From positions 1-62,759 of the forward strand of contig JAQTUZ010000008.1 of assembly GCA_028707065.1 (NCBI GenBank): a DNA stretch of 62,759 nt. Reading direction: 5' to 3'. Positions 37,399 to 53,784 of this stretch are shown piece by piece (the first letter of the stretch is position 1; each line of letters opens with the position of its first letter). The position numbers were made by a program, and so were the translations under genes. A model generated the notes under the pieces. That model saw nothing but the letters and a program-made list of their open reading frames with translations. It was not told where the DNA came from and made no database searches. Origin of the DNA: Patescibacteria group bacterium (GTDB lineage Bacteria; Patescibacteriota; Patescibacteriia; Patescibacteriales; WJLG01).

Positions 37399-37427
37399 AT
37401 ATTAGCATAAATAATACATTTTGTCAA
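37399..37427 (-). promoter_or_regulatory. extended -10 promoter for ORF 36935-37342
   Basis: Minus strand TTGACA-17 nt (ending TGC)-TAATAT. Confidence 0.65.
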
Positions 37428-37429
37428 CG

Positions 37430-39416: not shown

Positions 39417-39570
39417 GCTGATTTTTTACCTTTTTTGTCAATAGCCAAGTTTAAATGGAAAAGGTATAATTTATAGACACAGAGCATGGAACATAGAGCA
39501 AAGAGCATAAAATCCGAGAACTATTTTTTTTGTGTTCTTTGATCTTTGTTCTATGTTCTCCTACCAAACG

Positions 39571-41082
39571 ATGGATTTTCGTTTCAAATTAAGAATAGTC
39601 TGGATAGCTGCGCTGGCCGTGGCGGTTTTTGCGCTGGCGTGGCTGGCTATAATTCCTTTTGGCAAGATTACTTACTTGACAAATTTCAAGGGTTTTAATG
39701 ATTTCATCGGCAAGCTAACGCCCATGGAAAGAATTGTTGCCGAAAAAGACGGCACGCAAGATATTATCGGCGATCCGGCTTATTTTTCTTTGCGCACCCC
39801 GCGGCCATTTAATCAAGCTTTGCTTTCCGTAAAATTCCAAGTTGATCCGAATCTGCCGATCGTCGAGGCCGGAGTTTCCAAGGACGGGCGCACCTGGCAA
39901 TATGATTTGCAGCCGCTCTATAATGCTAAATTGGAAGAGTTGATGGAAAACTGGTTTGTATTAGATGATTCTGTTTTACCAGCGCTAACCCACCCCGCCT
40001 CGCCGGGCTCGGCACCCCTCCCAAGAGGGGACTCCACTGTTCTCCTGCAAAGAAATAAACAATTTGATACGATTGAAGAATTTTTAAAAAATCCTCCCGC
40101 GACCGACAAGATCGCTTTGTATAATTATGATTGGAAAACCGATTATTTATTGCCCGATTATCAGCCGCGGCAAGCTACCTCGACCATGTGCCGGCCGCTG
40201 GTCGGGGCTTATCAGTTTTATACCTACATTAAAAATGAGAATTTGTCCGATGACTTTGTTTTCCAAGATTTGAATAAAAATTTGGATCCGGACCCGATCG
40301 ATGTTTATGTTTATTATCGCGACAAATTGATTTCGAGCGAGCACCTCGACGACGATGGCATTGCTGTTGATAGCGGCGCGCAAAAACCGTGGCGGCATTT
40401 GAAGTTAGATTTGGCCAATTTGCCCGAGGGCGTTTATAAGATCACGGTGCGCGCTAATGGCGATATTGTGACGAGAACGATCACCACCGGACAAAGTAAA
40501 ATGGCTTTTATCAATGCTTTAGCGATTGCCGACGCTCCCGAAGTTTCCTGCGGCCGAAATTTTTTCACGGACGGGCGCACGCTGGCGGTTCAGACTTCGC
40601 ATCCGGATAAATTAGGCAAGATAACCATCAATAAAAATAACGGCAATTCATTTTCCGGCGTTGAGTTGAACATCGATCAAACTTATAAAATATTTACGGT
40701 TAACGATTTGCCGCCGGCTGGCAGTCAGATAATTCTTAATAATGACGGAATTTCGCTTTCCGGCGATGGGCTTTTTTCCCTGTCGGCCGAACAAATGATC
40801 GATCCGCGCGTTAAATCCGTTGATGCCAAATTCGATGCCGACCAGGAAGGCGTGGATTATGTTTTGGCGCGTTATACGCCGCCGGTCAAACAAGGCGATT
40901 GGCTGGTAGCGCAAGCTAACTTTGATCTAACCAACGCTTTCCGGATGTGGAATAAGTATTATTTTTTGATCTCCGCGCCCGGGTTATCCGCCAGCGATCA
41001 GCTTAACGATCAGGTGCGGATCAAGGAAATTAAGGTTGATTTGACCGGCACTTCGTTGTGGAAAAAAATATTTAAGAAATAA
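39571..41082 (+). CDS. hypothetical membrane-anchored extracytoplasmic protein
   Basis: Start trimmed to ATG 39571 (MDFRFKLRIVWIAALAVAVFALAWLAII); one TM then ~470 aa; carries one in-frame PE-A copy; precedes the GT-C cluster. Confidence 0.6.
   Translation: MDFRFKLRIVWIAALAVAVFALAWLAIIPFGKITYLTNFKGFNDFIGKLTPMERIVAEKDGTQDIIGDPAYFSLRTPRPFNQALLSVKFQVDPNLPIVEAGVSKDGRTWQYDLQPLYNAKLEELMENWFVLDDSVLPALTHPASPGSAPLPRGDSTVLLQRNKQFDTIEEFLKNPPATDKIALYNYDWKTDYLLPDYQPRQATSTMCRPLVGAYQFYTYIKNENLSDDFVFQDLNKNLDPDPIDVYVYYRDKLISSEHLDDDGIAVDSGAQKPWRHLKLDLANLPEGVYKITVRANGDIVTRTITTGQSKMAFINALAIADAPEVSCGRNFFTDGRTLAVQTSHPDKLGKITINKNNGNSFSGVELNIDQTYKIFTVNDLPPAGSQIILNNDGISLSGDGLFSLSAEQMIDPRVKSVDAKFDADQEGVDYVLARYTPPVKQGDWLVAQANFDLTNAFRMWNKYYFLISAPGLSASDQLNDQVRIKEIKVDLTGTSLWKKIFKK
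39986..40033 (+). repeat. PE-A element inside ORF 39571-41082 (in-frame, sense)
   Basis: taacccaccccgcctcgccgggctcggcacccctcccaagaggggact; translated LTHPASPGSAPLPRGDS. Confidence 0.9.
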
Positions 41083-41084
41083 TT

Positions 41085-41255
41085 TTTTTGTCATCCTGAG
41101 CGCCGCGCGAAGGATCTATTTTGTAGGAATTGAGAATTTTTTTCGATAAAAATTTTTTAAGGAGTAGTTAAATTTTGCTCGGGCAATAGATCCTTCCTCG
41201 CTCGCCGACCTCGTCCGCCTTGGGCGGAGGCGGCTCGCTCCTCAGGATGACAAAA
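41085..41255 (+). mobile_element. MITE-like element, second full copy
   Basis: tttttgtcatcctgagcgccgcgcgaaggatct ... agatccttcctcgctcgccgacctcgtccgccttgggcggaggcggctcgctcctcaggatgacaaaa; the right terminus contains ATG 41247. Confidence 0.8.
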
Positions 41256-43058
41256 CATATGATTAATTGGTTAAAAAAGTCCGCCTTCGCCAAGGCTATG
41301 GCGGACAAGAAAGAAAATTTTGTCCCAATAATAATTTTTATTCTGGCGGCTTTGCCGTTTATTTTCAATTTCCGGGATTTTTTCGTTTCCGATGATTGGG
41401 ATTTCCTGACGCAAGTGGCCAATCCGCATCAGCCGCTTTGGCAATATTTTCTCACCAATTATGTCGGCACGCACGCGGGCGGATCATATCGTCCGCTGGT
41501 GGTTTGGTTCTGGGCTTTTTGCCATCATCTTTGGCAATTAAATTATTTTTGGTATCACCTCGTCCAGATTTTTTTGCACGCGGCCAATGTCGTCTTGCTT
41601 TATTTAATTGTTTTAAATTTTGTCTGGCCCAATAAGAAGGAAGATCGATTTGCTTGGGCAGTCGTTGCGGCGGCCATTTTCGCGATCTTGCCTAATCATT
41701 CCGAGGCCGTGGCTTGGCTGGCGGCCATCGGCGATCCGCTTTGCAGTTTCTTCTTTCTCGCCAGTTTATTGCCGCTGCTTTTTTGTTTGAAATATCCGCG
41801 GGCCAAATATTGGCTTTACGCCGGTTCTCTGGTATTTTTTTCCGCTGCTTTGTTCACCAAGGAAATGGCCATTTCGCTGCCGTTTATCGTCTTGATTTTT
41901 GCCGGTTATTATCAAGCGAGCGAGCGAAATAACGCCGCGCCTCGCGGAGATTATTTTCGAGCGAGCGCTGATAAGATTATTTATTTCTGGAAAAATCGCG
42001 CCAGCGTCAAAATGATTAAAATATTATTTGTCGTTCCGTATTTTATAATATTGGCTGGGTATTTATGGCTGCGCTATCGCGCCATCGGCTTGTTTTTTGG
42101 TTATTACGGCGCCGAGCATCTGCATCTTGGCTTAATGAAAACAGCGGCGGTTTACGGCGATATCATCACCAGTTTTGTTTTGAGCGATAATTGGCGCACG
42201 ATTTTTTCTCTTTGGTTGAATAATAATTTAGTGATTGTTTTGGCGGCTGGCATTTTACTTTTTGTCGGATTGCTCTATTTAACCTGGAAAAAAAAATGGC
42301 CGGTTTGGCCCTGGCTCGTTTTTTTATCGCTTCTGGCCAGTCTGGCGCCGGTGGCGAGCTTTGGCATCAATCTGACCAAAACGTATTTCAGCGAAGAAGG
42401 GGAGCGCTATGGCTATCTGCCGTCGCTTTTCTTTGCGATAATATTGGCGGCGGGGATTATCGCCTTATGGAAAAAAAATAATAATAAATTATATTCCAGA
42501 ATTATCTTTTCCATAATTATTATTTTGATCGCCGGCGGGTTAGCCGGGCAATTGTTGGTGAAAAATTGGCGTTATCAACAAGCGGCGATAGTGGCGCAAA
42601 AATCTCTCTCGGGCGCGGTCGCCCTGATGAGGCAAGGCGATTACATCGGAGTTTTATTTTTCGGCCTGCCGGATAATTTTCACGGCGCGCCGATCTTCCG
42701 CAACGGCTGGCAGCAAGCGATCGCTTTTTATTTGCCCCAGCCGCCGATAATCCTCTCGCCGTTCAACCGTACTGCCGATGAAACCGGGCAAAAATTCGCC
42801 GTGGAAAAAATCGATCAGAATAATTTTAATTATTACAGCGTTAAGGCGGCCAAATCGATCCTGGCCAAGCCGAATTTCTCCTCGGCCGATTATTCCACGG
42901 TTTTGCGCGATTATATTTTCGAACCGGCCGGGATCAATGACCGTTATTTTGGCGACAGTCTGCTGATAACGCTGTCAAAAGATTTGGCGGCCAATCCGCA
43001 AGTCGCCCTGTTTTTTTGGGACGGTGAAAAATGGGTCGTTTTAATCGGCCAGCGATAA
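41247..43058 (+). CDS. GT-C-like polytopic membrane glycosyltransferase (PMT/ArnT/TMTC-like)
   Basis: More than 10 TM; first loop FFVSDDWDFL (acidic DD motif shared with 45076-46539 and 56973-58676); start lies in the MITE terminus (alternative ATG 41259); in-frame PE-E repeat. Confidence 0.6.
   Translation: MTKHMINWLKKSAFAKAMADKKENFVPIIIFILAALPFIFNFRDFFVSDDWDFLTQVANPHQPLWQYFLTNYVGTHAGGSYRPLVVWFWAFCHHLWQLNYFWYHLVQIFLHAANVVLLYLIVLNFVWPNKKEDRFAWAVVAAAIFAILPNHSEAVAWLAAIGDPLCSFFFLASLLPLLFCLKYPRAKYWLYAGSLVFFSAALFTKEMAISLPFIVLIFAGYYQASERNNAAPRGDYFRASADKIIYFWKNRASVKMIKILFVVPYFIILAGYLWLRYRAIGLFFGYYGAEHLHLGLMKTAAVYGDIITSFVLSDNWRTIFSLWLNNNLVIVLAAGILLFVGLLYLTWKKKWPVWPWLVFLSLLASLAPVASFGINLTKTYFSEEGERYGYLPSLFFAIILAAGIIALWKKNNNKLYSRIIFSIIIILIAGGLAGQLLVKNWRYQQAAIVAQKSLSGAVALMRQGDYIGVLFFGLPDNFHGAPIFRNGWQQAIAFYLPQPPIILSPFNRTADETGQKFAVEKIDQNNFNYYSVKAAKSILAKPNFSSADYSTVLRDYIFEPAGINDRYFGDSLLITLSKDLAANPQVALFFWDGEKWVVLIGQR
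41905..41975 (+). repeat. PE-E element inside GT-C gene 41247-43058 (in-frame)
   Basis: gttattatcaagcgagcgagcgaaataacgccgcgcctcgcggagattattttcgagcgagcgctgataag; translated GYYQASERNNAAPRGDYFRASADK. Confidence 0.88.
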
Positions 43059-43136: not shown

Positions 43137-44840
43137 ATGAACACTGCAATTCAAGCGCTTTATGACAATTTAATGTCCGTGGTCAGCGTCAAATTCGTGC
43201 TGATCATGTTTGTGGCGTTGGCGATAACTTTTGTTCTGATGAAAGCCAAACCTTGGCTGTTTTTGTTGCTGACCGGCGCGGCCGCGGCCGTTTCTTACGC
43301 TTTGATCTCCCATAATTTTATTTTATCTTTCTGGGGTTTGGTGGGCGATGAAGCGACGATCGCCGCCATTTTTAATACTTTCGCTCACGTGAGTTTCTTT
43401 TCCGATTTTGCTTATCACAATTTGCCGCCATTTTATCCGCCGCTCTTTTTTTGGATTTTCGCGCTGGTGGGAAAAATAATGTCCTGGAACGGCGTGACGA
43501 TCGCCAAATTCGCCTCGGTTGCTTCCTTTTTTCTGATTCCGCTTTTGGTTTATTGGCTTTTTAAATTTTTCAATAATCGTGATGAGAATAAAAGCGAGCT
43601 GCCCGAAGCGGCGCCGCTGCTTTTTTCCTTGTTCATTTTTATTTTGGTCGATGTCGATGTGATGATCGGCAAGCCTTACGAAGTGCTGGCCGCGGCCGCG
43701 GCGGTTCTCTGGACGATTTTTTTGGTGCGAAAAGCGCGCCAGGCTTGGAATTGGAAGATAATGGTTAGCTTTGGCGTGATCGGCGGCTTGATCTTCATGA
43801 CTTATTATCTCTGGCTGATCTTTGCCGCCATCGCTATCGCGCTTTACGCGCTGTCCGTGGCCAAGAAAGAACAATTCGTTTTCTACGGCCGACTTTTGTC
43901 CGTGGCCGGAATATCTTTGCTCGTTGCCTCGCCTTATTTATTTCCGCTTGTTTTCGCTTATTTGAAAATTGGCACGGAGAATTGGCAGACGGCGATTTTC
44001 ACGCCCAACGGATTGGTTTACAGCCTGCAGGCGCTGACCGAATTTTCCTGGCGCGGCGCGCTGATGCTCGCCGGTCTCGTTGCCGCGATTTATTATCGCC
44101 GCGACGAGCGCGTCAAGCCGGCGCTTTGCCTTTTTATCGCTTCTTATTTATGGTGGGCGATGGGATTGGCCACGGTTTATTTTTTCAACAGCCCTTTTCA
44201 AGAATTCCGCGGTTTCGGCCTGATCGACCGGCTTGCCCTCGGCTATTGCGCCGCTTTTGCCATTGCCCGATTATTCGGCAAGTGGAAAGAAAAGATCGGC
44301 CAGCGCGGGCAAGAAGTTATTTTAATAGTCGGCCTGCTTATTTTGTCGCTTTATTTGCCTTGCGGAACTTTCGTTGATGCCGACGGCGTCAGGAACAGGA
44401 TGATCAAGTCGAAATCAATGTATCCGATCGAGGTCAAGCTTTTTGATTTTTTAAAAAAAGACCAAGCGCCGCCCGGACTGGTGCTTAATTCCGGCTTGGC
44501 GGAATTGCCGGCTTTCGTGCCGGTCAACACTTTTATCTATTTCGGCCAGCATAACAATCATCCGGCGGCCCATTTTTCCGACCGCCAAGCTTATCTGCGG
44601 GCAATGGCCGGCGCCAAAGATCCGGCCGAATTTTATCGGCTTGCCGCGACGCCTTACGGGGAAATAACCCGGCTGATTTTGGCCAGAGATAAAAAGGATT
44701 ACGTGATCTATTTCAATCTGGACGAGCCGGTAGCCGGCATCAAACAGGATAATCTCAGGCTGAAAGGGGATTTGATCTCGGAAAAATATTTCACCAAAGT
44801 GTTTCAAGATGATTATTATGCGGTTTGGGATAAGAAATAA
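43137..44840 (+). CDS. polytopic membrane protein, possible GT-C-type glycosyltransferase
   Basis: 567 aa, more than 10 TM followed by a ~170-aa soluble C-terminal domain; in a cluster with GT-C-like genes. Confidence 0.5.
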   Translation: MNTAIQALYDNLMSVVSVKFVLIMFVALAITFVLMKAKPWLFLLLTGAAAAVSYALISHNFILSFWGLVGDEATIAAIFNTFAHVSFFSDFAYHNLPPFYPPLFFWIFALVGKIMSWNGVTIAKFASVASFFLIPLLVYWLFKFFNNRDENKSELPEAAPLLFSLFIFILVDVDVMIGKPYEVLAAAAAVLWTIFLVRKARQAWNWKIMVSFGVIGGLIFMTYYLWLIFAAIAIALYALSVAKKEQFVFYGRLLSVAGISLLVASPYLFPLVFAYLKIGTENWQTAIFTPNGLVYSLQALTEFSWRGALMLAGLVAAIYYRRDERVKPALCLFIASYLWWAMGLATVYFFNSPFQEFRGFGLIDRLALGYCAAFAIARLFGKWKEKIGQRGQEVILIVGLLILSLYLPCGTFVDADGVRNRMIKSKSMYPIEVKLFDFLKKDQAPPGLVLNSGLAELPAFVPVNTFIYFGQHNNHPAAHFSDRQAYLRAMAGAKDPAEFYRLAATPYGEITRLILARDKKDYVIYFNLDEPVAGIKQDNLRLKGDLISEKYFTKVFQDDYYAVWDKK

Positions 44841-45075: not shown

Positions 45076-46539
45076 TTAATATTTTTTTATTTTATATTCT
45101 CGGGCGTCGCCGTCCCAATACATCAGGACTTCGCCGGGCTGAAGCTGGATTTTTTCATCAGCCGGGGGAAAAATTATTCCATCATCTTTCATCCGGCCGA
45201 TGGTGATCGCCGCGCCATAGAGATGGGCGTTATTACCGGTAAAGGGGTAATCCCAGCGGATGAATAATTTTATTGGCGCCAATTTTTCGACCTCCTTCAT
45301 TGCCGCTACCAGCGACCGGCCGGTTTGATAAACATAGGGATAATCGCGGTTGACGACTTGGAATAAATAAACGGTTTGCCAGCCGGTAAGAATGATTATT
45401 ATCGCGGCCATCGCGCTGCCGCGGAGCCGAGACTTTTTTTGACTGACATGATAATGGAGAATTGCCGCCAAGATAATGATCATCCCGAAACGGGGGAGAT
45501 AGGTGTAGCGGGAAGCCAGCGGATCCCACCAATTTACGGTGGCGAGCATTATCGTCGGGGCAATAGTAATGACGATCCAAATAAATCCAAATCTGACGAG
45601 CGACAATTTTCGATAAGTGAAAGCTATTGCCACTAAAAATCCGGAACAGGCGAGGATCAGCCATCCGACTGCCAAATGATGCAAGAGAGGAGTGATTTCT
45701 CCCAGGGGGATAAAAAGATCAGCGATGACGATCGGCAGACGGGCGAAGGTATGCCAGGAAAAAGCCAGAGCGCCGCTTGATACCGTAAAACTTTGTTTTT
45801 GCCAAAGGTATTGCTGCCAACCGTAAAGTAAAAATAAAATAATTAGCGTTGTCCAATATATAAGATGCGCTTTTGAAAATATTTTATTTTTATAGTTTTT
45901 CCAAAAAATAAATAAAATCGCGATAAGCAAAACCGGAAAGATCGCCGCGATCTCTTTGCTGCCGATCGCCAAGAGCGCGGCCAGAAAAGAAAAAAGCAAG
46001 TAGATTTTTTTGCCGCCGTTCAAATAGGCAAGATAGCAGGCGATGCCGAGAAAAATAAATAAAGTGGCGATCGAATGCATATTGGCGCCGACCCAGACCA
46101 AGGGTTCAAAAGCGGCGCCCGCCCAAACGAATAGCAGCCCGGTTACCGCGGCCACGAGCCGCGAGCGGGATAATTGCCAGGCGATCAGGGCGGCTAAGAG
46201 CGAATTGGCGAGATGAACTAAAATGCCAAAAGCAAAATAAGCCGGAGCGGCAAAACCGAAAATTTGATACATCACCGTGTAAAACAAGTTCAAGACCGGC
46301 GAATAAAAACTGGACATTCGGAAAGTCAGGACGTTATAAAGATTTAAATTTATTTTGGCGCCGTGCCAAAGCCAGGTAAAATCATCCGAGAAAAAATAAG
46401 CTTTCCAAAGCGTCCAGCCGAATAAAGCGGCGGCAATGATGGCGTAAAGCAAAGCCAAGCCCAGCCAAAATTTAACGCCCGGACGGGTTTCGCCGCCATT
46501 TTCAAGAGAAAGATTGGTTGTCGAAGGGTTGATTGGCAT
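45076..46539 (-). CDS. GT-C-like polytopic membrane glycosyltransferase
   Basis: More than 10 TM; first loop YFFSDDFTWLWHG; start moved from TTG 46554 to ATG 46539, 6 nt downstream of a TATAAT box. Confidence 0.6.
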   Translation of the reverse strand: MPINPSTTNLSLENGGETRPGVKFWLGLALLYAIIAAALFGWTLWKAYFFSDDFTWLWHGAKINLNLYNVLTFRMSSFYSPVLNLFYTVMYQIFGFAAPAYFAFGILVHLANSLLAALIAWQLSRSRLVAAVTGLLFVWAGAAFEPLVWVGANMHSIATLFIFLGIACYLAYLNGGKKIYLLFSFLAALLAIGSKEIAAIFPVLLIAILFIFWKNYKNKIFSKAHLIYWTTLIILFLLYGWQQYLWQKQSFTVSSGALAFSWHTFARLPIVIADLFIPLGEITPLLHHLAVGWLILACSGFLVAIAFTYRKLSLVRFGFIWIVITIAPTIMLATVNWWDPLASRYTYLPRFGMIIILAAILHYHVSQKKSRLRGSAMAAIIIILTGWQTVYLFQVVNRDYPYVYQTGRSLVAAMKEVEKLAPIKLFIRWDYPFTGNNAHLYGAAITIGRMKDDGIIFPPADEKIQLQPGEVLMYWDGDAREYKIKKY

Positions 46540-46545
46540 GATTTG

Positions 46546-46574
46546 ATTATACAATTTCGACTAATTTAAAGCAA
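46546..46574 (-). promoter_or_regulatory. promoter giving a leaderless transcript for GT-C gene 45076-46539
   Basis: Minus strand TTGCTT-17 nt-TATAAT, then 6 nt (caaatc) before ATG 46539. Confidence 0.55.
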
Positions 46575-46692
46575 AAACCATCAGCTGCCCGGATAAAAAA
46601 AAGGGTTGCCCCAGTTCGAGAAAATTGGTATAATTTTAGCAGGATTAGGAGGAAGTTGAGCGTCCGAATAATTAAGAAATAATTGAAATTTT

Positions 46693-47670
46693 ATGATGGG
46701 GAATGAAAAATCGATTTATCCAGGCCCAGATAATGAAAATCCTTCTGCCAACGCCGGATCGTCGGAAAAATTAAAAGATACACCCAAAGAAATTTGTTAT
46801 AATCTGAGCCGGATGATGGCTGATATTGCCGTCAAAGGCAATAAAGAATTTGGAGGTAACGCGATTTTAAATAATGACGCCAGCGTAAACATGGTCCAAT
46901 GGGAAACGGGCAACGGCGGCCCGCATTCTCGGGCAGATAGAAAAAGAGATCGGAAAGTGGTAAATGAGCATCTGCTCCTTTATAGCGGACTTTCGAAAAT
47001 GGAAGAAGGGCCGAAAAGAGACGCGGCGGTCGCCGCCTGGCTGGAGAAAAGGGGATTGAGCATGACAGTTTTGATGGAGCGGTCAATCGCGGCAGCCTGC
47101 AATAAGATTGTCGGTGGTAAATTCATCATCGTTCTGCCGGCGATCTATGATGACATCGTCAACGGCGTTGATAATATGATGGTTAACAAGGAAACCGGCG
47201 ACGTGATTTGCGCTTTTGATGAGATTCGCGAGTACGAAGGTCTTCATCGGGGCGAAGCCGGTCATGAAGAAGGTACTTTAAGAAAAGTTCATTCGGATGA
47301 ATTTGCGGAATTAACCAGAAGGGAGAAGAAAGAAGAAAAGATTATCCGCAAAGCCGAGCGCGGCGGAGCGAAAATCAGGTATGGTTTTGGCAAAGAGGGC
47401 GGCAAATTAGTCAAAAAGGAAATAACCGGCGTGCCGCTGTTTTACGTTTCTTTGGCCGAGAGCGAAACCAAGCGGCTTTTAAATGGAATGGACTATGTTT
47501 CTGATCAGCCGAGCGCCGTTGAGCTGGAAGTTTTTGATAAGCTGATTCTATCTTTTGAAAAGCAGGCGGCAGATATCGGGAAAGCTAGTATTAATTCAGA
47601 CGTGCGGCGCAATCTGGCGAATTTTGAAAAATCATTGGCGGTGATGAAAGAATTGCGGAAGAGGTTTTAA
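46693..47670 (+). CDS. hypothetical protein (325 aa)
   Basis: Long ORF with no recognisable family; its last 21 codons are duplicated in diverged form at 48086-48151. Confidence 0.55.
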   Translation: MMGNEKSIYPGPDNENPSANAGSSEKLKDTPKEICYNLSRMMADIAVKGNKEFGGNAILNNDASVNMVQWETGNGGPHSRADRKRDRKVVNEHLLLYSGLSKMEEGPKRDAAVAAWLEKRGLSMTVLMERSIAAACNKIVGGKFIIVLPAIYDDIVNGVDNMMVNKETGDVICAFDEIREYEGLHRGEAGHEEGTLRKVHSDEFAELTRREKKEEKIIRKAERGGAKIRYGFGKEGGKLVKKEITGVPLFYVSLAESETKRLLNGMDYVSDQPSAVELEVFDKLILSFEKQAADIGKASINSDVRRNLANFEKSLAVMKELRKRF

Positions 47671-47708
47671 TAAATATACCCCTCCAAAATTTTCAAAAGT
47701 AAAAAACA

Positions 47709-48047
47709 ATGAAAATAACAAAAAAATCACACGAAACATTTGTACGTGAAGATGCACACGATGGAAGTGGTGGCAGAAAGTTGCTATTGGCTGACAATGA
47801 AATGAAAAATGTACAAGGAATGACATGTGGATTTTTGCCAGCTGGTGCGAAATTTGCCTGGCACACCCATGAAAAATTGAATGAAGTCATGTATGTGCTG
47901 AAGGGACAAGGTACAGTTCGTGATGAAGATGGTACTTATCCATATAATGTTGGAGATATTTTTATTTTTCCAGAGGGTATTTTCCATGAAATTGAAAACA
48001 AATCTATGGAAGAGAACGAATATATATTTGTAAGAGTTTATATATAA
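47709..48047 (+). CDS. cupin-domain protein
   Basis: GAKFAWHTHEKLNEVMYVLKGQG...GDIFIFPEGIFHEIEN (cupin motifs 1 and 2); AT-rich. Confidence 0.75.
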   Translation: MKITKKSHETFVREDAHDGSGGRKLLLADNEMKNVQGMTCGFLPAGAKFAWHTHEKLNEVMYVLKGQGTVRDEDGTYPYNVGDIFIFPEGIFHEIENKSMEENEYIFVRVYI

Positions 48048-48085
48048 GCTAGTCGGGGGTGCCATAGTCCTGACTGCGCCCGCCT

Positions 48086-48151
48086 CGGAGGAATATCGGT
48101 AATTTTGAAAAATCATTGTTGGAAATAGCCGAATTAAGAAAAAAGTTTTAA
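48086..48151 (+). pseudogene. orphan 3'-end fragment (21 codons plus stop) homologous to the end of ORF 46693-47670
   Basis: RRNIGNFEKSLLEIAELRKKF-stop versus RRNLANFEKSLAVMKELRKRF-stop at 47608-47670; includes the identical 18-mer aattttgaaaaatcattg. Confidence 0.75.
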
Positions 48152-48154
48152 AAT

Positions 48155-48305
48155 ATTCCCCTCCCTGGAGGGGTGCCGAGCCCGGCGAGGCGGGGTGGGC
48201 TATTCCCCTCCGCGGGAGGGGTGGACGCGCCGCGCGGACGGGGTGGGTTTCATTGGCGTTAATTCCCCTCCGCGGGAGGGGTGCCCGAAGGGCGGGGTGG
48301 GTTTC
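48155..48305 (-). repeat. three tandem PE-A elements upstream of the DUF559 gene
   Basis: Copies at 48155-48200, 48202-48251 and 48262-48305, each attcccctcc(ctgg/gcgg)gaggggtg-[GC palindrome]-cggggtggg(c/ttt). Confidence 0.9.
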
Positions 48306-48330
48306 AATAAAAAATTAATCAAGGAGGGGA

Positions 48331-48747
48331 ATGTTTAAAAGAAAAATATTACCATGCAACCCGAAGTTAATTGAGCTGGCCAAAAAATTAAGGAAGCAGG
48401 GGATTTTATCCGAAGTAATTTTGTGGAATCATTTGAAAGGCGGCAAACGGTTTGGCCATGATTTTCATCGCCAAAAACCAATTGATAATTATATTGTTGA
48501 TTTTTTCTCGCCCGACTTAATGTTGGCGATTGAAATCGATGGAATATCGCACGGATATAAATTTGATCAAGACGAAGAAAGAGATAGGCGGCTGGGGACG
48601 TTAGATATTAAAGTTTTAAGATTTACCGATAGCAGTGTTAAAAATAATTTGGACGGAGTTTTAGATGAAATAGATTGCTGGATAAAAGAAAATTTTCAAA
48701 CCCACCCTGCCACCGAGGCGGTGGCACCACTCCCAAGAGGGGAATAA
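48331..48747 (+). CDS. DUF559 (Vsr/restriction-endonuclease-like) domain protein
   Basis: LRKQGILSEVILWNHLKGGKRFGHDFHRQKPIDNYIVDFFSPDLMLAIEIDGISH...LDIKVLRFTDSSV; last 15 codons and the stop come from a PE-A repeat. Confidence 0.85.
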   Translation: MFKRKILPCNPKLIELAKKLRKQGILSEVILWNHLKGGKRFGHDFHRQKPIDNYIVDFFSPDLMLAIEIDGISHGYKFDQDEERDRRLGTLDIKVLRFTDSSVKNNLDGVLDEIDCWIKENFQTHPATEAVAPLPRGE

Positions 48748-48796
48748 TGCCCACCCCGTCCGGCCAGGGGCCGTCCACCCCTCCAGGGAGGGGAAT
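48698..48796 (+). repeat. two tandem PE-A elements at/after the DUF559 3' end, inverted relative to 48155-48305
   Basis: 48698-48745 aaacccaccctgccaccgaggcggtggcaccactcccaagaggggaat (supplies THPATEAVAPLPRGE-stop); 48749-48796 gcccaccccgtccggccaggggccgtccacccctccagggaggggaat. Confidence 0.9.
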
Positions 48797-48855
48797 AAAA
48801 AAAGCGCCGGAACTCGAGGTGAGTTCGGCGGCGCCTGTAAGCGAGATTGGTGTTG

Positions 48856-49071
48856 TTATCCTTTGTTTGCCCTAGCTATCGTAGGAGGATTGAAAGGGTG
48901 GATAAACTCATTGTAGAACGTAAGTGTTGCGATCAATTCAAGGATTGCACACAATATGATTGCTACAAAAGGGAGTAGCGTCCATAATGCTGCTGTAATT
49001 GGAATGATCATGCTATTAGCAACAACAATCCCCAAAACAAATATCCATGGTCTCGATTTGAAATTTTTCAT
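48856..49071 (-). CDS. small membrane protein (71 aa)
   Basis: ATG 49071 after GAAAGAGG; promoter 49119-49147; two TM helices. Confidence 0.45.
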   Translation of the reverse strand: MKNFKSRPWIFVLGIVVANSMIIPITAALWTLLPFVAIILCAILELIATLTFYNEFIHPFNPPTIARANKG

Positions 49072-49118
49072 ACACAACCTCTTTCTGTTTAATGTACTAT
49101 TCTAATTGCTTGTATTAA

Positions 49119-49147
49119 ATAATATCATATTTTACTAATTTTGTCAA
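49119..49147 (-). promoter_or_regulatory. extended -10 promoter for small membrane gene 48856-49071
   Basis: Minus strand TTGACA-17 nt (ending TGA)-TATTAT. Confidence 0.65.
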
Positions 49148-49151
49148 TAAT

Positions 49152-51089
49152 ATGACCAAAAAATCAGCAAAAAAGGCCAAAAAGACGAATGCGGGAGGGG
49201 AACTAACTGATGTTTTATTAGCTTCCAAGAAGCTTTATAAGCCGTCGGCAGAGCTTGTTAAAAATGCGGTAGTGAAGGATTGGGAAAAGGCACGAAGAGA
49301 AGCGGATAAGGATCCGCTCGGTTATTGGGAAGAAGCGGCGAAAGATCTGGTTTGGTTCAAACCCTGGACGCAAGTTTTAGATAAATCGCAGAAGCCATTT
49401 TTCAAATGGTTCATCGGCGGGCAAACCAACCTGGCTTATAACGCGATCGACCGCTGGCTGAATACGCCGAAGGAAGACAAGATTGCAATTATGTCCGAAG
49501 ATGAAACCGGCCGTGCCCGCCAATTCACCTATAAAGAAGTTTCCCGTGAAGTGAATAAGATCGTTAATGGCTTAAAGGGTTTGGGAATAAAGAAAGGTGA
49601 TCGCGTCGCGATCTATATGCCGAATATTCCCGAGATCGCCTTTGCGATGTTGGCTTGCGCCAAGCTCGGCGCGATGCACTCGGTAGTTTATGCCGGTTAT
49701 TCCGCGACTGCCTTGAAGGACAGAATCAATGACGCGCAGGCGAAGGTTGTTTTCACCGCCGATGGTTCCTGGCGCCGCGGCAAAGCGATAAATTTGAAAG
49801 CCGTAGTTGATGAAGCAGTTAAGGAATGTCCGAGCGTGGAAAAAGTTATCGTCACCAAAAATAATAATCAGGAAGTGCCGTTTGATGGCGGAAAAAATAT
49901 CTGGCTGCATGATCTGACCAAAGATCAATCAACCGAAGCAAAATGCGAAGCGATGGAAGCTGAAGACCCGGCTTTTGTTCTCTATACTTCGGGCACCACG
50001 AGCAAGCCGAAAGGTGTGGTGCATGTCCATGGCGGTTATCCGGTCGGAGTTTTGCGCACGATGAAATGGATTTGGGATATCAAGGACAATGAAATTTTTT
50101 GGTGCACGGCTGATCCGGGCTGGATCACCGGCCATTCTTATATTATCTATGGGCCGCTCTTGGCCGGCGTCACGACTTTGATGTATGAAGGCACGCCGGA
50201 TTTTCCCGAACAGGATCACATCTGGAGCATGGTGGAAAAATATAAAGTGACGATCCTTTATACGGCGCCGACTTTGATCCGCGCGATGATGAGCTTAGGC
50301 GATGAATTGCCGGACAAGCATGAGATGCCGACCTTGCGTTTGCTTGGTTCGGTGGGCGAGCCGATCAACCCCAAAGCTTGGACTTGGTATTTCAAACATA
50401 TCGGCAAATCCAAGCGGCCGGTATTGGATACTTGGTGGCAGACAGAAACCGGCTGCAATATGATTTCGCCGCTGCCGGTCACGCCGTTAAAGGCAGGCTC
50501 CGCGACCAAACCGTTCCCGGGAATCCAAGCCGACATTTTGGATATGAAAGGCAAAAAGGTTCCGGCCGGCAAAGGCGGCTACTTAGTAATCAAAACCCCT
50601 TGGCCGTCGATGATCCGTACGGTTTTCAATGCGCCGGAAAGATATCTCAAAACTTATTGGCATGATATCAAAGGCGTCTTCTTCACCGGCGATATCGGCT
50701 TTAAAGATAAGGACGGTTATTTCTTCATCCAGGGCCGCACTGATGATATGTTGAAGATCGCGGGACACAGGATTGGCACGGCGGAAGTCGAATCGGCTTT
50801 TGTTTCGCATCCGGCCGTGGCCGAGTGCGGCGTGATCGGCGTGCCCGATGAGATCAAGGGCGAAGTCATCAAGGCTTTCTGCATCTTAAAACAGGGTTTC
50901 ACCGGCGACGATAAATTGAAAGAAGAATTGAAGTTGCACGTCCGCAAGACGATCGGTCCGGTCGCGGTTATGAAAGACGTCGCCTTTGTCGATTCCTTGC
51001 CGAAAACCCGCTCCGGCAAGATCATGCGCCGCATCCTCAAGGCTAAAGAACTCGGCTTGCCGTTAGGCGACACCAGCGCCCTAATCTAA
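49152..51089 (+). CDS. acs: acetyl-CoA synthetase (AMP-forming)
   Basis: 645 aa; YTSGTTSKPKG, WWQTETG, C-terminal SLPKTRSGKIMRR with the conserved regulatory Lys. Confidence 0.95.
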   Translation: MTKKSAKKAKKTNAGGELTDVLLASKKLYKPSAELVKNAVVKDWEKARREADKDPLGYWEEAAKDLVWFKPWTQVLDKSQKPFFKWFIGGQTNLAYNAIDRWLNTPKEDKIAIMSEDETGRARQFTYKEVSREVNKIVNGLKGLGIKKGDRVAIYMPNIPEIAFAMLACAKLGAMHSVVYAGYSATALKDRINDAQAKVVFTADGSWRRGKAINLKAVVDEAVKECPSVEKVIVTKNNNQEVPFDGGKNIWLHDLTKDQSTEAKCEAMEAEDPAFVLYTSGTTSKPKGVVHVHGGYPVGVLRTMKWIWDIKDNEIFWCTADPGWITGHSYIIYGPLLAGVTTLMYEGTPDFPEQDHIWSMVEKYKVTILYTAPTLIRAMMSLGDELPDKHEMPTLRLLGSVGEPINPKAWTWYFKHIGKSKRPVLDTWWQTETGCNMISPLPVTPLKAGSATKPFPGIQADILDMKGKKVPAGKGGYLVIKTPWPSMIRTVFNAPERYLKTYWHDIKGVFFTGDIGFKDKDGYFFIQGRTDDMLKIAGHRIGTAEVESAFVSHPAVAECGVIGVPDEIKGEVIKAFCILKQGFTGDDKLKEELKLHVRKTIGPVAVMKDVAFVDSLPKTRSGKIMRRILKAKELGLPLGDTSALI

Positions 51090-52568: not shown

Positions 52569-53138
52569 ATGAAGCGAGTTTTTATTATCCATGGCTGGGG
52601 AGGATCAGGCGGCGAAGGCTGGCAGGCTTGGCTTAAAGATGAATTAGAAGAAAAGGGTTTTGAAGTCTATGCTCCCGATATGCCGGATACGGAAAATCCG
52701 GATATCGAAGCCTGGGTTTCTACTCTGGCAAAATTGGTCGGGAAATGCGATGAGAAAACTTTTTTTGTCGGCCATAGTGTCGGCTGTCAGACAATTTTGC
52801 GCTATCTGGCTGAATTGCCTGAGGGTGAAAAAGCTGGTGGTGCGGTATTTGCCGCCGGCTGGTTTAATTTAAAAGGTTTGACTTTTCAAGAAGAAGAGAT
52901 CGCGATGCCCTGGTTAAGATTGCCGATCGATTTGGAAAAAGTTAAAACCAAAACAACCAAGTTTTTTGCCGTTTTTTCCGACAACGATCCAGTCGTTCCG
53001 CTCTCCGATGAAGAATTATTCAAAGAAAATCTGGGCGCCGAAACAGCCGTCTTAAAAGATAAAGAGCATTTTACCGGCGAAACGGATATCAACGAATTGC
53101 CAATCGTTTTGGAAAAGCTTTTGGCGATGGCGAAGTAA
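52569..53138 (+). CDS. YdeN/RBBP9-type alpha/beta serine hydrolase, copy 1
   Basis: MKRVFIIHGW, nucleophile elbow GHSVGC, SDNDPVVPL, KEHF. Confidence 0.75.
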   Translation: MKRVFIIHGWGGSGGEGWQAWLKDELEEKGFEVYAPDMPDTENPDIEAWVSTLAKLVGKCDEKTFFVGHSVGCQTILRYLAELPEGEKAGGAVFAAGWFNLKGLTFQEEEIAMPWLRLPIDLEKVKTKTTKFFAVFSDNDPVVPLSDEELFKENLGAETAVLKDKEHFTGETDINELPIVLEKLLAMAK

Positions 53139-53142
53139 AAAT

Positions 53143-53784
53143 ATGAAAAGAGTCTTTATAATTCATGGCTGGGAGGCCGATCCGGGAAGCAATTGGTTCC
53201 CTTGGTTGAAAGATGAGTTAATCAAAAAAGGCATTGAGGCCGAAGTTCCGACCATGCCGAATTCGGCGCATCCTCTGTGCGCCGAATGGGTTGCTTATTT
53301 AAAAAAGATCGTCGGCAAAACCGACAAAGATACTTTTTTAGTCGGTCACAGCTTGGGCGTAATCGCTATTTTACGTTATCTGGAATCAATGGCGGCGAAG
53401 GAAAAGATCGGCGGCGCGATTTTGGTCGCCGGTTTCCCTGAACCATTGCCGGCAAGCGACGGAGGAGATTTTTCCGAACTGAATAATTTTTTTGCTAAAC
53501 CGTTGGATTATGAAAAAATAAAAAATAATGTCAGTAATAGACCCACCCCGCCTCCGTCAGGGACGGAGTCACCCCTCCCGGGGAGGGGACAAATTTTTTC
53601 CGGCTTCGTGGCAATCCACTCCGACAATGATCCTTATGTGCCGCTGGCCAACGGAAAAATTTTGCAAAAAAAATTAGGCGCTGAGTTGATTGTGATTTCG
53701 GGCGGCGGCCATTTGAATGCCGGCGACGGATTTTTCCAATTTCCTTTGGTCTTAGAAAAGATTTTGCGATGGACTAATAATTAA
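53143..53784 (+). CDS. YdeN/RBBP9-type alpha/beta serine hydrolase, copy 2 (with PE-A insert)
   Basis: MKRVFIIHGW, GHSLGV, SDNDPYVPL, GGGHL; tandem paralogue of 52569-53138 with a ~19-aa extra segment encoded by PE-A. Confidence 0.75.
   Translation: MKRVFIIHGWEADPGSNWFPWLKDELIKKGIEAEVPTMPNSAHPLCAEWVAYLKKIVGKTDKDTFLVGHSLGVIAILRYLESMAAKEKIGGAILVAGFPEPLPASDGGDFSELNNFFAKPLDYEKIKNNVSNRPTPPPSGTESPLPGRGQIFSGFVAIHSDNDPYVPLANGKILQKKLGAELIVISGGGHLNAGDGFFQFPLVLEKILRWTNN
53539..53590 (+). repeat. PE-A element inside hydrolase copy 2 (in-frame, sense)
   Basis: agacccaccccgcctccgtcagggacggagtcacccctcccggggaggggac; translated RPTPPPSGTESPLPGRG; absent from the tandem paralogue. Confidence 0.9.

What the first reader, a model, noticed from the sequence alone, without database searches (positions are those of the whole stretch)
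47608..48151. Cupin gene sits in a ~415-nt insertion flanked by two diverged copies of the upstream gene's 3' end, with a breakpoint inside a PE-A hairpin
ORF 46693-47670 ends RRNLANFEKSLAVMKELRKRF-stop. It is followed by a truncated PE-A stub, aatatacccctcc (47673-47685).

After the AT-rich cupin gene (47709-48047), a second, diverged copy of the same ending occurs at 48086-48151: RRNIGNFEKSLLEIAELRKKF-stop. It shares the 18-mer aattttgaaaaatcattg and is followed by the intact aatattcccctccctggagggg..., which is the first copy of the PE-A array leading to the DUF559 gene.

The cupin cassette was therefore inserted together with a homologous gene end, and the left junction falls in the first stem of PE-A. 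This marks PE-A as a recombination breakpoint and the 47.6-48.8 kb segment as a hot spot.
Basis: partly seen in the sequence, partly recalled or inferred. Interest (0 to 1): 0.7.

Follow-up and report, generated by a model that had tools for sequence, protein, structure and literature searches.

The report
Gene-end relic beside an acquired cupin
A small, recently acquired cupin gene in a Patescibacteria (Falkowbacteria-like) genome sits where two divergent versions of a neighbouring gene were joined by recombination, leaving a 66-base relic of one version; this is an ordinary recombination scar, not a new kind of mobile element.

Summary
Gene X (46693-47670) ends RRNLANFEKSLAVMKELRKRF. A 66-nt fragment at 48086-48151 encodes RRNIGNFEKSLLEIAELRKKF-stop. 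A C-terminal profile built only from relatives hits that fragment at E=1.3e-9.

Between them lie a 13-nt stub of the PE-A repeat and an intact, AT-rich cupin gene.

- **Syntenic relatives** lack the cupin and the second copy. In L014 the X end is followed directly by one PE-A. In L015 and L017 it is followed by a PE-A array plus DUF559.
- **The full X gene** (with the adjacent membrane gene m492) is a divergent "type A" allele shared only with L014. Its phylogeny disagrees with the flanking genes.
- **The relic** is non-A. It lies in the same position relative to the PE-A array and DUF559 as the intact X gene of L015 and L017.
- **The cupin** is a separate, recent import: 90% nt identity to a gene in an unrelated 35%-GC contig, with no shared flanks.
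- **The shared 18-mer** is a conserved coding motif (NFEKSL), not a crossover core.

Best reading: a scar of allele displacement or insertion with one illegitimate joint (HFIR-like). Which block was resident is unresolved. Interest is modest.

The parts
45076..46554 (-). m492, a multi-pass membrane protein with no Pfam hit. It is part of the 'type A' block.
   Evidence: Present only in the window and L014 (75% aa). Absent between s59 and X in L015, L017, L018, L019 and L020. The junction with s59 is the same in the window and L014.
46606..46634 (+). Promoter-like site for X (TTGCCC-17-TATAAT).
   Evidence: The sequence block is conserved upstream of X in L014 (type A) and L015 (type B), so types A and B are positional alleles.
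46693..47670 (+). Gene X, type A allele. It is a conserved hypothetical protein of Patescibacteria, 325 aa.
   Evidence: No Pfam or NCBIfam hit. 65 loci found in genome contigs. 78-80% identity to L014 but 48-52% to L015 and L017. Type A along its whole length.
47605..47685 (+). Direct-repeat copy 1: the last 21 codons plus stop of X type A, then the first 13 nt of PE-A.
   Evidence: 86% nt and 95% aa identity to the L014 end.
47673..47685 (+). PE-A stub (aatatacccctcc): only the 5' arm of the first hairpin. The left breakpoint is at 47685|47686.
   Evidence: L014 has a complete PE-A at this position.
47686..47708 (+). AT-rich leader (GC about 24% over 47671-47708). Origin unresolved.
   Evidence: Matches to sequence upstream of other cupins are marginal, p = 0.03-0.2.
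47709..48047 (+). Monocupin gene, 112 aa, with both metal-binding motifs intact. Horizontally acquired.
   Evidence: Cupin_2 2.1e-14. About 70 homologues at 66-90% aa identity in unrelated contexts. 90.3% nt identity to L079, with third-codon-position identity 0.81. GC 34.8%.
48048..48085 (+). GC-rich spacer (68% GC) containing a small hairpin. It holds the illegitimate joint. Origin unresolved.
   Evidence: No significant similarity to X genes, PE-A units or the L006 spacer. Hairpin seen.
48086..48151 (+). Relic: the last 21 codons plus stop of a second, non-A allele of X.
   Evidence: E=1.3e-9; divergence pattern shows selection; about 70% nt identity to every known X end; colinear with the L017 and L015 X end plus PE-A.
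48152..48310 (+). PE-A array: three hairpin units leading to DUF559.
   Evidence: Unit 1 is nearly identical to L017 unit 1, and unit 3 to the last unit of L017 and L015.
48331..48747 (+). DUF559 (Vsr-like PD-(D/E)XK nuclease fold) gene. Its 3' tail is encoded by the right-hand inverted PE-A.
   Evidence: Pfam DUF559 2.1e-24. 89% aa identity to L015 and 83% to L017. Inverted repeats I1-I3.
48694..48800 (+). Two inverted PE-A units closing the DUF559 unit.
   Evidence: I1-I7. The same layout occurs in L015 and L017.
48856..49077 (-). Small membrane protein (73 aa) between DUF559 and the acetyl-CoA synthetase gene.
   Evidence: Positional counterparts in L015, L017 and L019. Absent in L014.
49152..51089 (+). 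Acetyl-CoA synthetase gene, the conserved right-hand anchor of the variable interval.
   Evidence: 92-95% aa identity to L014, L015 and L017.

Best explanation
The structure is a recombination scar at the edge of a variable region in a Falkowbacteria-like Patescibacteria genome. Two divergent alleles of gene X were brought side by side, and one was cut down to its last 66 nt.

**The two blocks and the seam**
- The left block is [m492 - X type A - first arm of PE-A].
- The right block is [X tail - PE-A array - DUF559 - small membrane gene - ACS]. This is the arrangement that relatives L015 and L017 have, but with an intact X.
- At the seam lies a recently imported monocupin gene.

**Favoured sequence of events (inferred)**
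- A lineage with the L015/L017-type layout took up foreign DNA carrying the type A block. The cupin was either already behind X-A or was trapped in the same event.
- The incoming DNA replaced the resident X except for its last 21 codons.
- The right-hand joint (48048-48085) is illegitimate, as in homology-facilitated illegitimate recombination (HFIR).
- A complete X is retained, so nothing is lost, and the cupin is gained.

**Likely expression (inferred)**
- The hairpin that follows X in relatives is reduced to half a stem here. The cupin is therefore probably read through from the X promoter.
- Transcription probably ends in the PE-A hairpins.

**Shown versus inferred**
- Shown: the homology of the relic, the insertion polymorphism, the foreign origin of the cupin, and the phylogenetic discordance of X.
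- Inferred: the direction of the event (which block was resident), the number of steps, and the HFIR mechanism.
For: 1. **The relic is a true X C-terminus.** Profile E=1.3e-9.
2. **It diverged while under selection.** It differs from copy 1 at 19 of 63 nt, yet all family-conserved residues and the reading frame are kept. In simulation, P=0.007 for no stop plus the 5 invariant residues, and P=1e-5 for no stop plus 11 conserved residues. It therefore diverged inside a working gene and is not a decayed local duplicate.
3. **It is non-A.** It carries the non-A states E13, I14 and K20.
4. **Relatives lack the insertion.**
   - L014: X-A end followed by one PE-A, with no cupin and no DUF559.
   - L015 and L017: X-B end, then a PE-A array 2-6 nt after the stop, then DUF559, a small membrane gene and ACS.
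   - L018-L020: X directly before ACS.
   - No other locus of 66 has a second X end.
5. **The relic is in its native context on the right.** The relic, PE-A unit 1 and DUF559 are colinear with L017 and L015.
6. **X is discordant with its flanks.**
   - Over 2083 aa columns of ComEC, g516, g612 and ACS, the window is 80.5% identical to L014, 82.1% to L015 and 82.7% to L017.
   - Quartet-informative sites in those genes are 29 / 45 / 19.
   - In X the identities are 80% against 52% and 48%, and the quartet sites are 46 / 4 / 0.
   - m492 occurs only with type A.
7. **The cupin is a separate, later import.**
   - 90% nt identity to L079, a 35%-GC contig where it follows an NB-ARC/TPR gene.
   - Third-position identity 0.81, against 0.63-0.66 for orthologues between the window and its relatives.
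   - GC 34.8%, against 46% for the A block.
   - Homology to other cupin loci ends at the ORF.
8. **A second, independent case exists.** In L006 a cupin sits between diverged copies of the upstream tRNA-Ser 3' end, terminator and leader (spacing 470 nt, 72% identity). The same kind of joint therefore recurs.
9. **DNA uptake is plausible.** A ComEC competence gene lies in the window at 37421-39040.
10. **The mechanism and the resulting 'shifted-back 3' end' are documented** for T6SS, Rhs and CDI loci (PMC5361080; PMC3240628).
Against: - **The direction is not proven.** The four genomes form a near-star phylogeny, and the window's preference for L015/L017 in the flanking genes is only 2 percentage points.
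- **The 66-nt relic cannot be classified.** It is about 70% nt identical to every known X end, type A or type B. Only three residues mark it as non-A.
- **No donor is known.** Only two type A genes exist among 5.8 billion proteins.
- **No homologous anchor can be shown at the left end of the A block.** s59 is not L014-like, so the event may have had two illegitimate ends.
- **The origins of the spacer and the leader are unresolved**.
- **The contig comes from a single metagenome assembly with no independent copy**.
Confidence: 0.6

Rival explanations
1. A resident type A genome had X-A followed by PE-A (and DUF559), like L014. It received a small fragment of about 480 nt, [cupin - spacer - tail of a foreign X - start of PE-A]. 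The right crossover was by homology in the PE-A array. The left joint was illegitimate, in the first PE-A hairpin.
For: - L014 shows X-A followed by an intact PE-A, the expected empty site.
- The left breakpoint is exactly at the arm/loop boundary of the hairpin.
- m492 and X-A have the same junctions in the window and L014, as expected if they are vertically inherited.
- PE-A units are near-identical between lineages and could serve as a homologous anchor.
Against: - The donor would need a cupin sitting inside a destroyed X gene, yet X is conserved in 65 species-level genomes.
- The flanking genes do not make the window a sister of L014: quartet sites are 29 against 45.
- The cupin has no conserved cassette ends, and no X-like sequence lies next to it elsewhere.
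Confidence: 0.2
2. X-A and X-B are ancient tandem paralogues: s59 - m492 - X-A - X-B - PE-A - DUF559. Different lineages lost different copies. The window is caught midway, with X-B deleted down to its tail and a cupin inserted.
For: - Within-type identities (71-80%) equal genome-wide distances, while between-type identity is about 50%. That is the pattern expected of paralogues.
Against: - No locus of 66 has two X genes.
- Types A and B share the same promoter block and the same position after s59, so they are positional alleles.
- PE-A follows the stop codon of both types at high similarity, which is unexpected after an old duplication.
Confidence: 0.07
3. The contig is an assembly chimera of two co-occurring strains, one type A and one type B.
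For: - It is a single metagenomic contig, and no independent contig carries these exact proteins.
Against: - A chimera formed at a shared k-mer would give a hybrid gene, not a duplication.
- The joint at 48048-48085 has no repeat elsewhere in the region.
- The only shared word is 18 nt, shorter than usual assembly k-mers.
- L006, from another assembly, shows the same anatomy.
Confidence: 0.05
4. The cupin is the cargo of a site-specific integrative element or gene cassette. It inserts into the 3' end of a gene and carries a replacement gene end (att duplication), with an integrase acting in trans.
For: - Direct repeats cover a gene's 3' end in two loci. In L006 the target is a tRNA-Ser 3' end, a classic integration target.
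- There is an exact 18-nt core in the window.
Against: - No integrase or recombinase lies among the annotated neighbours of the insert.
- Only 2 of about 45 cupin loci have flanking repeats.
- No cassette ends or attC-like site are conserved. The shared TGCGCC motif is not significant, p=0.14.
- The repeats are only 70-72% identical.
- The 18-mer is explained by the invariant FEKSL motif and is present in L014, which has no insertion.
Confidence: 0.04
5. The X 3' end was duplicated in situ and then drifted, with the cupin inserted between the copies.
For: - The two copies are in direct orientation, 481 nt apart.
Against: - There are 19 differences in 63 nt, yet every conserved residue is kept (P about 0.002-0.007).
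- Copy 1 is 86% identical to L014 while copy 2 is about 70% identical to everything.
- Copy 2 carries ancestral, non-A states.
Confidence: 0.03

Closest known systems
[quoted passage not shown] Described for Acinetobacter, Pseudomonas stutzeri and Streptococcus pneumoniae, as summarised in PMC3240628 and PMC5361080.
   Same: - Foreign DNA is integrated with at least one non-homologous joint next to a conserved gene.
- The result is an insertion plus a partial duplication or deletion of recipient sequence.
- A ComEC uptake gene is present in the window.
   Different: - The mechanism is inferred from the product only.
- No donor is known, and no microhomology can be scored.
- The left end of the imported block shows no demonstrable homologous anchor.
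- The organism is an uncultured Patescibacteria bacterium.
Displaced ('orphan') 3' gene ends downstream of T6SS effector, Rhs and CdiA genes (Kirchberger et al. 2017, PMC5361080, and references there).
   Same: - An intact gene is followed by a promoterless fragment homologous to its own 3' end.
- That fragment was left when an incoming allele displaced the old one, and new cargo was added in between.
   Different: - In those systems the 3' ends are the variable toxin tips, and the cargo is immunity genes under selection.
- Here the 3' end is the most conserved part of X.
- The relic is only 21 codons long.
- The cargo is a cupin with no evident link to X.
Genomic islands flanked by a duplicated 3' end of a tRNA or protein gene (attL/attR of integrase-mediated insertion).
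   Same: - Direct repeats cover a gene's 3' end and bracket foreign, compositionally deviant DNA.
- The L006 case involves a tRNA-Ser end.
   Different: - There is no integrase.
- The repeats are 70% rather than about 100% identical.
- The insert is only 415 nt with one gene.
- There are no conserved ends across loci.
REP elements with their RAYT transposases, and MITE-like palindromic repeats. These are the analogy for PE-A with DUF559.
   Same: - Short GC-rich hairpin repeats in intergenic arrays flank, in inverted orientation, a small nuclease-family gene.
   Different: - DUF559 has a Vsr-like PD-(D/E)XK fold, not a Y1 (HUH) transposase fold.
- PE-A is confined to the flanks of the one DUF559 gene in this window.
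- No activity is known.

Membership tests
HFIR-type displacement scar (orphan 3' end) | An intact gene plus a downstream promoterless fragment homologous to its 3' end only. | tested here: met
   Stop codons lie upstream of the fragment, and there is no homology to X upstream of 48086.
HFIR-type displacement scar (orphan 3' end) | The two copies derive from different alleles or lineages, not from a local duplication. | tested here: met
   copy 1 is 86% identical to L014, copy 2 about 70% to all, and the substitution pattern shows selection.
HFIR-type displacement scar (orphan 3' end) | Foreign DNA lies between the copies, and relatives lack the insertion. | tested here: met
   Cupin GC 34.8% and 90% nt identity to the unrelated locus L079. 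L014, L015 and L017 have no cupin here.
HFIR-type displacement scar (orphan 3' end) | One end was integrated through a homologous anchor. | tested here: inconclusive
   X and m492 are discordant with their flanks, but no anchor segment could be delimited at the s59/m492 border.
HFIR-type displacement scar (orphan 3' end) | Microhomology of a few bases at the illegitimate joint. | not testable with these tools
   The donor sequence is unknown. The spacer 48048-48085 has no identifiable source.
Integrase-mediated island / att duplication | A tyrosine or serine recombinase in or next to the element. | tested here: not met
   The 415-nt insert holds only the cupin. The annotated neighbours are glycosyltransferase-like proteins, X, DUF559, ACS and hydrolases.
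Integrase-mediated island / att duplication | A near-identical core repeat created by the crossover. | tested here: not met
   The 18-nt identity equals the invariant NFEKSL codons. It is also present in L014 (exact) and L015 (17/18), which have no insertion. Overall the repeat is 70% identical.
Integron gene cassette | An attC recombination site after the ORF, conserved among copies of the cassette. | tested here: not met
   No conserved sequence lies beyond the stop codon among about 45 cupin loci.
Transposon / IS insertion | A short identical target-site duplication and terminal inverted repeats around the cargo. | tested here: not met
   The repeat is about 80 nt and diverged. No inverted repeats bracket the cupin.
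Cupin superfamily (Cupin_2) | The two cupin motifs with His/Glu metal ligands in a domain of about 70 residues. | tested here: met
   PF07883 2.1e-14 over residues 43-108. H52, H54, E59 and H93 are invariant in 20 homologues. The nearest solved structures are monocupins and oxalate decarboxylase domains, E=4e-7. The substrate is unknown.

The most novel reading that the evidence does not exclude
PE-A together with DUF559 may be a selfish unit whose Vsr-like nuclease cuts its own hairpin repeats. Breaks at the first PE-A hairpin would then make the X-to-ACS interval a recombination hot spot. Such a hot spot would drive replacement of the neighbouring X allele and capture stray genes such as the cupin.

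The data that allow this reading are these.
- The breakpoint lies exactly at the arm/loop boundary (47685|47686).
- L012 has a collapsed PE-A cut after the same cccctcc.
- PE-A copy number varies between relatives (1, 2, 3 or 4 units).
- The same inverted flanks sit next to DUF559 genes in several other phyla.
Probability: 0.12. Interest if true: 0.7.

Novelty: new member of a known kind. Interest (0 to 1): 0.3.

Why it matters
- **A rare, datable trace of gene exchange.** Patescibacteria are uncultured, reduced-genome bacteria whose mechanisms of gene flow are known almost only by inference. Here one conserved gene was swapped for a 50%-diverged allele, and a small enzyme gene was picked up from a low-GC relative.
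- **Annotation.** It cautions annotators that the 66-nt fragment is a relic, not a gene.
- **Variable region.** It marks the X-to-ACS interval and the adjacent glycosyltransferase genes as variable.
- **No new biology in itself.** The scar does not reveal a new mechanism.
- **The by-product may matter more.** DUF559 genes carry conserved hairpin-forming inverted flanks across phyla, and that is the more promising lead.

Tried and rejected
1. **Does the relic extend upstream, or is the post-cupin spacer the second arm of a split PE-A hairpin?** Local alignments of 48048-48088 against the upstream parts of six X genes and against seven PE-A units were not significant. The best was p=0.048, for a 9-mer. 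Both ideas were dropped.
2. **Does the 23-nt leader come from the donor's upstream gene (NB-ARC C-terminus)?** p=0.03-0.2 in AT-rich sequence, so this is unresolved.
3. **Is the 'hairpin + TGCGCC..CCTC' shared after the cupin in the window and L006 a cassette end?** p=0.14, so it is treated as chance.
4. **Is there a conserved cupin cassette?** Alignments of the window with L004, L005, L006, L079 and L084 show homology only in the ORF. A repeat scan of about 45 loci found flanking repeats only in the window and L006.
5. **Is X-like sequence part of the DUF559 unit?** The X C-terminal profile hits only L015 and L017 among 80 DUF559 loci.
6. **Did a crossover occur at the 18-mer (Campbell-type)?** Rejected, because copy 1 is L014-like on both sides of the 18-mer.
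7. **Is X a mosaic?** The sliding-window comparison shows type A throughout.
8. **Can strain-level relatives be found?** Exact-protein look-ups of DUF559 and ACS found nothing on record.
9. **Are there known RNAs?** No Rfam hit in 46000-49500 and no tRNA in the window.
10. **Does the RNA fold of 48040-48335 help?** It shows only the expected PE-A hairpins.
Full report
**1. The observation**

- Gene X (46693-47670, 325 aa) ends RRNLANFEKSLAVMKELRKRF-stop.
- It is followed by aatatacccctcc (47673-47685).
- An intact 112-aa cupin ORF lies at 47709-48047 (Cupin_2, E=2.1e-14).
- After a 38-nt GC-rich spacer, 48086-48151 reads RRNIGNFEKSLLEIAELRKKF-stop. Stop codons lie just upstream in the same frame.
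- The repeat finder reports 47605-47675 / 48086-48156: 71 nt, 70% identity, spacing 481 nt.
- With a 2-nt indel, the repeat continues through the first arm of PE-A, to 47685 and 48164.
- The 18-mer occurs exactly twice in the window.

A profile of the X C-terminus built from eight relatives, without any window sequence, picks out two peptides among 2326 six-frame peptides of the window. These are the X end (E=2.7e-18) and the fragment (E=1.3e-9). The second copy is real homology, not chance.

**2. What the parts are**

X is a conserved hypothetical protein of Patescibacteria.
- It has no Pfam or NCBIfam family.
- There are 65 species-level loci.
- The closest is a Candidatus Falkowbacteria MAG, called L001 or L014 here, at 78% identity.
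- FEKSL in the tail is invariant in the family.

The same 18-mer is exact in L014 and 17/18 in L015. It is therefore a conserved coding motif, not evidence of a crossover.

The cupin is a small monocupin with all metal ligands conserved. It has about 70 homologues at 66-90% identity. They lie in unrelated neighbourhoods:
- after an NB-ARC/TPR gene in L004, L007 and L079;
- between DUF1697 and a peptidase in L005;
- after a tRNA-Ser in L006;
- after an aminotransferase in L008.

DNA similarity between these loci stops at the start and stop codons. The nearest copy, L079, is 90.3% identical in nucleotides and lies in a 35%-GC contig. The window's cupin is 34.8% GC, in a 44.9%-GC window and next to a 46%-GC X gene.

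Third-codon-position identity to L079 is 0.81. For orthologues between the window and its nearest relatives it is 0.63-0.66. The cupin is therefore a recent horizontal arrival. It is not the relocated copy of the 41%-identical cupin that L014 carries elsewhere.

**3. Synteny**

The clade shares s59 - X - ... - acetyl-CoA synthetase (ACS).

| Locus | Content of the X-to-ACS interval |
|---|---|
| L014 | X end followed directly by one complete PE-A; no cupin, no DUF559 |
| L015, L017 | X stop, then 2-6 nt, then a PE-A array (4 and 2 units), DUF559, an inverted PE-A, a terminator, a small membrane gene, ACS |
| L018-L020 | X next to ACS, no PE-A |
| L012 | A collapsed PE-A, and a deletion reaching past ACS |

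No locus other than the window has a second X end.

**4. Which copy belongs where**

- Copy 1 is 86% nt and 95% aa identical to the L014 end.
- Copy 2 is about 70% nt identical to every X end known, including copy 1.
- Its 19 differences from copy 1 spare every conserved residue and the reading frame. In simulation, P=0.007 for no stop plus the 5 invariant residues, 1e-5 for no stop plus 11 conserved residues, and 0.002 for at least 14 identical residues.
- It therefore diverged as part of a working gene and was truncated fairly recently.
- It carries E13, I14 and K20, the states of non-A family members.
- It is contiguous with PE-A unit 1, whose spacer is almost identical to unit 1 of L017, and with DUF559. 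This is exactly how the intact X end sits in L015 and L017.

**5. The full-length X is the discordant piece**

| Comparison | Window vs L014 | Window vs L015 | Window vs L017 | Quartet sites (win+L014 / win+L015 / win+L017) |
|---|---|---|---|---|
| ComEC, g516, g612, ACS (2083 aa columns) | 80.5% | 82.1% | 82.7% | 29 / 45 / 19 |
| X | 80% | 52% | 48% | 46 / 4 / 0 |

- The flanking genes give a near-star tree with no window-L014 affinity.
- X exists as two deeply split types. Type A is in the window and L014. Type B is in L015, L017 and L012. Identity is 68-80% within types and about 50% between them.
- The window's X is type A along its whole length.
- The membrane gene m492 occurs only with type A, at the same junction after s59.
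- The promoter block is shared by both types. They are therefore positional alleles rather than tandem paralogues.

The window thus carries a complete type A block, and immediately downstream the tail of a non-A allele in its native right-hand context.

**6. Mechanism**

The simplest account is allele displacement with an illegitimate joint.
- DNA carrying [m492 - X-A - first PE-A arm], with the cupin behind it or trapped in the same event, replaced the resident X except for its last 21 codons.
- The non-homologous joint lies in 48048-48085.
- This is what homology-facilitated illegitimate recombination produces. The same process is invoked for the 'shifted-back' 3' ends and orphan modules of T6SS, Rhs and CDI loci (PMC5361080; PMC3240628).
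- A ComEC gene lies 8 kb upstream.

The reverse direction cannot be excluded.
- The phylogeny of the flanks is nearly a star.
- The relic is too short to classify beyond 'non-A'.
- I give it 0.2, mainly because it requires a donor in which the conserved X gene had been destroyed.

Other rivals are each contradicted by at least one test. These are integrase-mediated insertion, an integron cassette, a transposon, local duplication and an assembly chimera. See the rival explanations and the membership tests.

**7. A second example**

In L006 the cupin (81% aa identical) lies between two diverged copies (72% identity, spacing 470 nt) of the tRNA-Ser 3' end, its terminator and the leader of the next gene. 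Among about 45 cupin loci, only this one and the window show flanking repeats. There is no dedicated cassette machinery, but the same kind of joint has happened at least twice with this gene.

**8. Likely consequence (inferred)**

- The hairpin that follows X in relatives is reduced to half a stem.
- No terminator-like site lies between X and the cupin.
- The cupin is therefore probably co-transcribed from the X promoter (46606-46634).
- The three PE-A hairpins after the relic probably stop transcription before DUF559.

**9. What remains unexplained**

- The sources of the 23-nt leader and the 38-nt spacer are unknown.
- So are the donor of the type A block, the left boundary of that block, and whether one or two events were involved.
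- Read-level validation was not possible. The contig is the only record of these sequences.

**10. Verdict**

- The feature is a recombination scar of a known kind, with a recently acquired cupin at the seam.
- It is a tidy case in an uncultured lineage, but not surprising. Interest is 0.3.
- The cross-phylum association of DUF559 with PE-A-like inverted flanks, seen in passing, deserves its own look.

Noticed in passing
window 48152-48800; loci L088, L090, L092, L097, L119, L120 (about 140 nt before the ATG and the last 45 nt plus 120 nt after the DUF559 ORF): DUF559 genes only 50-60% identical, from other phyla (Thermodesulfovibrionia, Brocadiaceae/Planctomycetota, Desulfobacterota, Runella), are bracketed by the same inverted module as PE-A. 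Just before the ATG lies tcccctc-N-gaggggtg-N-ggggtgggt, and its reverse complement overlaps the 3' end of the ORF. The strict motif occurs at 0.86 per kb near the gene and 0.047 per kb elsewhere. The Runella unit even shares the spacer gcccgaagggc with window unit 3. It looks like a nuclease gene travelling with terminal hairpin repeats. A two-term full-text search ('DUF559' + 'inverted repeat') returned three papers, whose titles and abstracts do not describe this association; none was read.
   Followed up: partly
L006 3829-4480 (GCA_041651095.1, JBAZJV010000002.1): A second cupin insertion has the same anatomy. The order is tRNA-Ser(CGA), terminator, leader, cupin, then a diverged repeat of the tRNA 3' end (CTCCGCAGATT), terminator and leader, ahead of a DUF218 gene. 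The spacing is 470 nt and the identity 72%.
   Followed up: partly
L012 6906-6968: After the X stop, L012 has attcccctcc-aaaaaaa-ggggt-ataaaaaattaatca. This looks like a PE-A array collapsed after the same cccctcc arm as the window's stub, followed by the leader that precedes DUF559 elsewhere. DUF559, the small membrane gene and ACS are all missing, so X abuts the ADP-forming acetyl-CoA synthetase gene.
   Followed up: no
window 43137-44840 (and 39532-43058): This is a cluster of large multi-pass, GT-C-like membrane proteins. The AftA_N-like gene at 43137-44840 is only 29% identical to its positional counterpart in L014 and undetectable in L015 and L017, while its neighbours are 65-80% identical. 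It appears to be a hypervariable glycosyltransferase slot directly left of the X region.
   Followed up: no
window 52569-53784 versus L001 13539-14546: L014 has Ser_hydrolase followed by a cupin (41% identical to the window's cupin) before the ACD-GNAT gene. At the same place the window has two tandem Ser_hydrolase genes and no cupin.
   Followed up: no
L079, L081, L084 (genome contigs): The closest cupin homologues (86-90% aa) lie in MAGs labelled Ignavibacteriaceae, Tannerella and Saprospirales. This is either mis-binned Patescibacteria contigs or transfer of this small gene across phyla.
   Followed up: no
L017 5001-5894 (= L013 5701-6594): The type B X gene of L017 has an internal stop and is annotated as a 198-aa protein. 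This is either a pseudogene or a sequencing error.
   Followed up: no
window 48202-48261: PE-A unit 2 (spacer gacgcgccgcgcggac) resembles the solo PE-A of L014, whereas units 1 and 3 match those of L017. The array may itself be a mosaic of two lineages.
   Followed up: no
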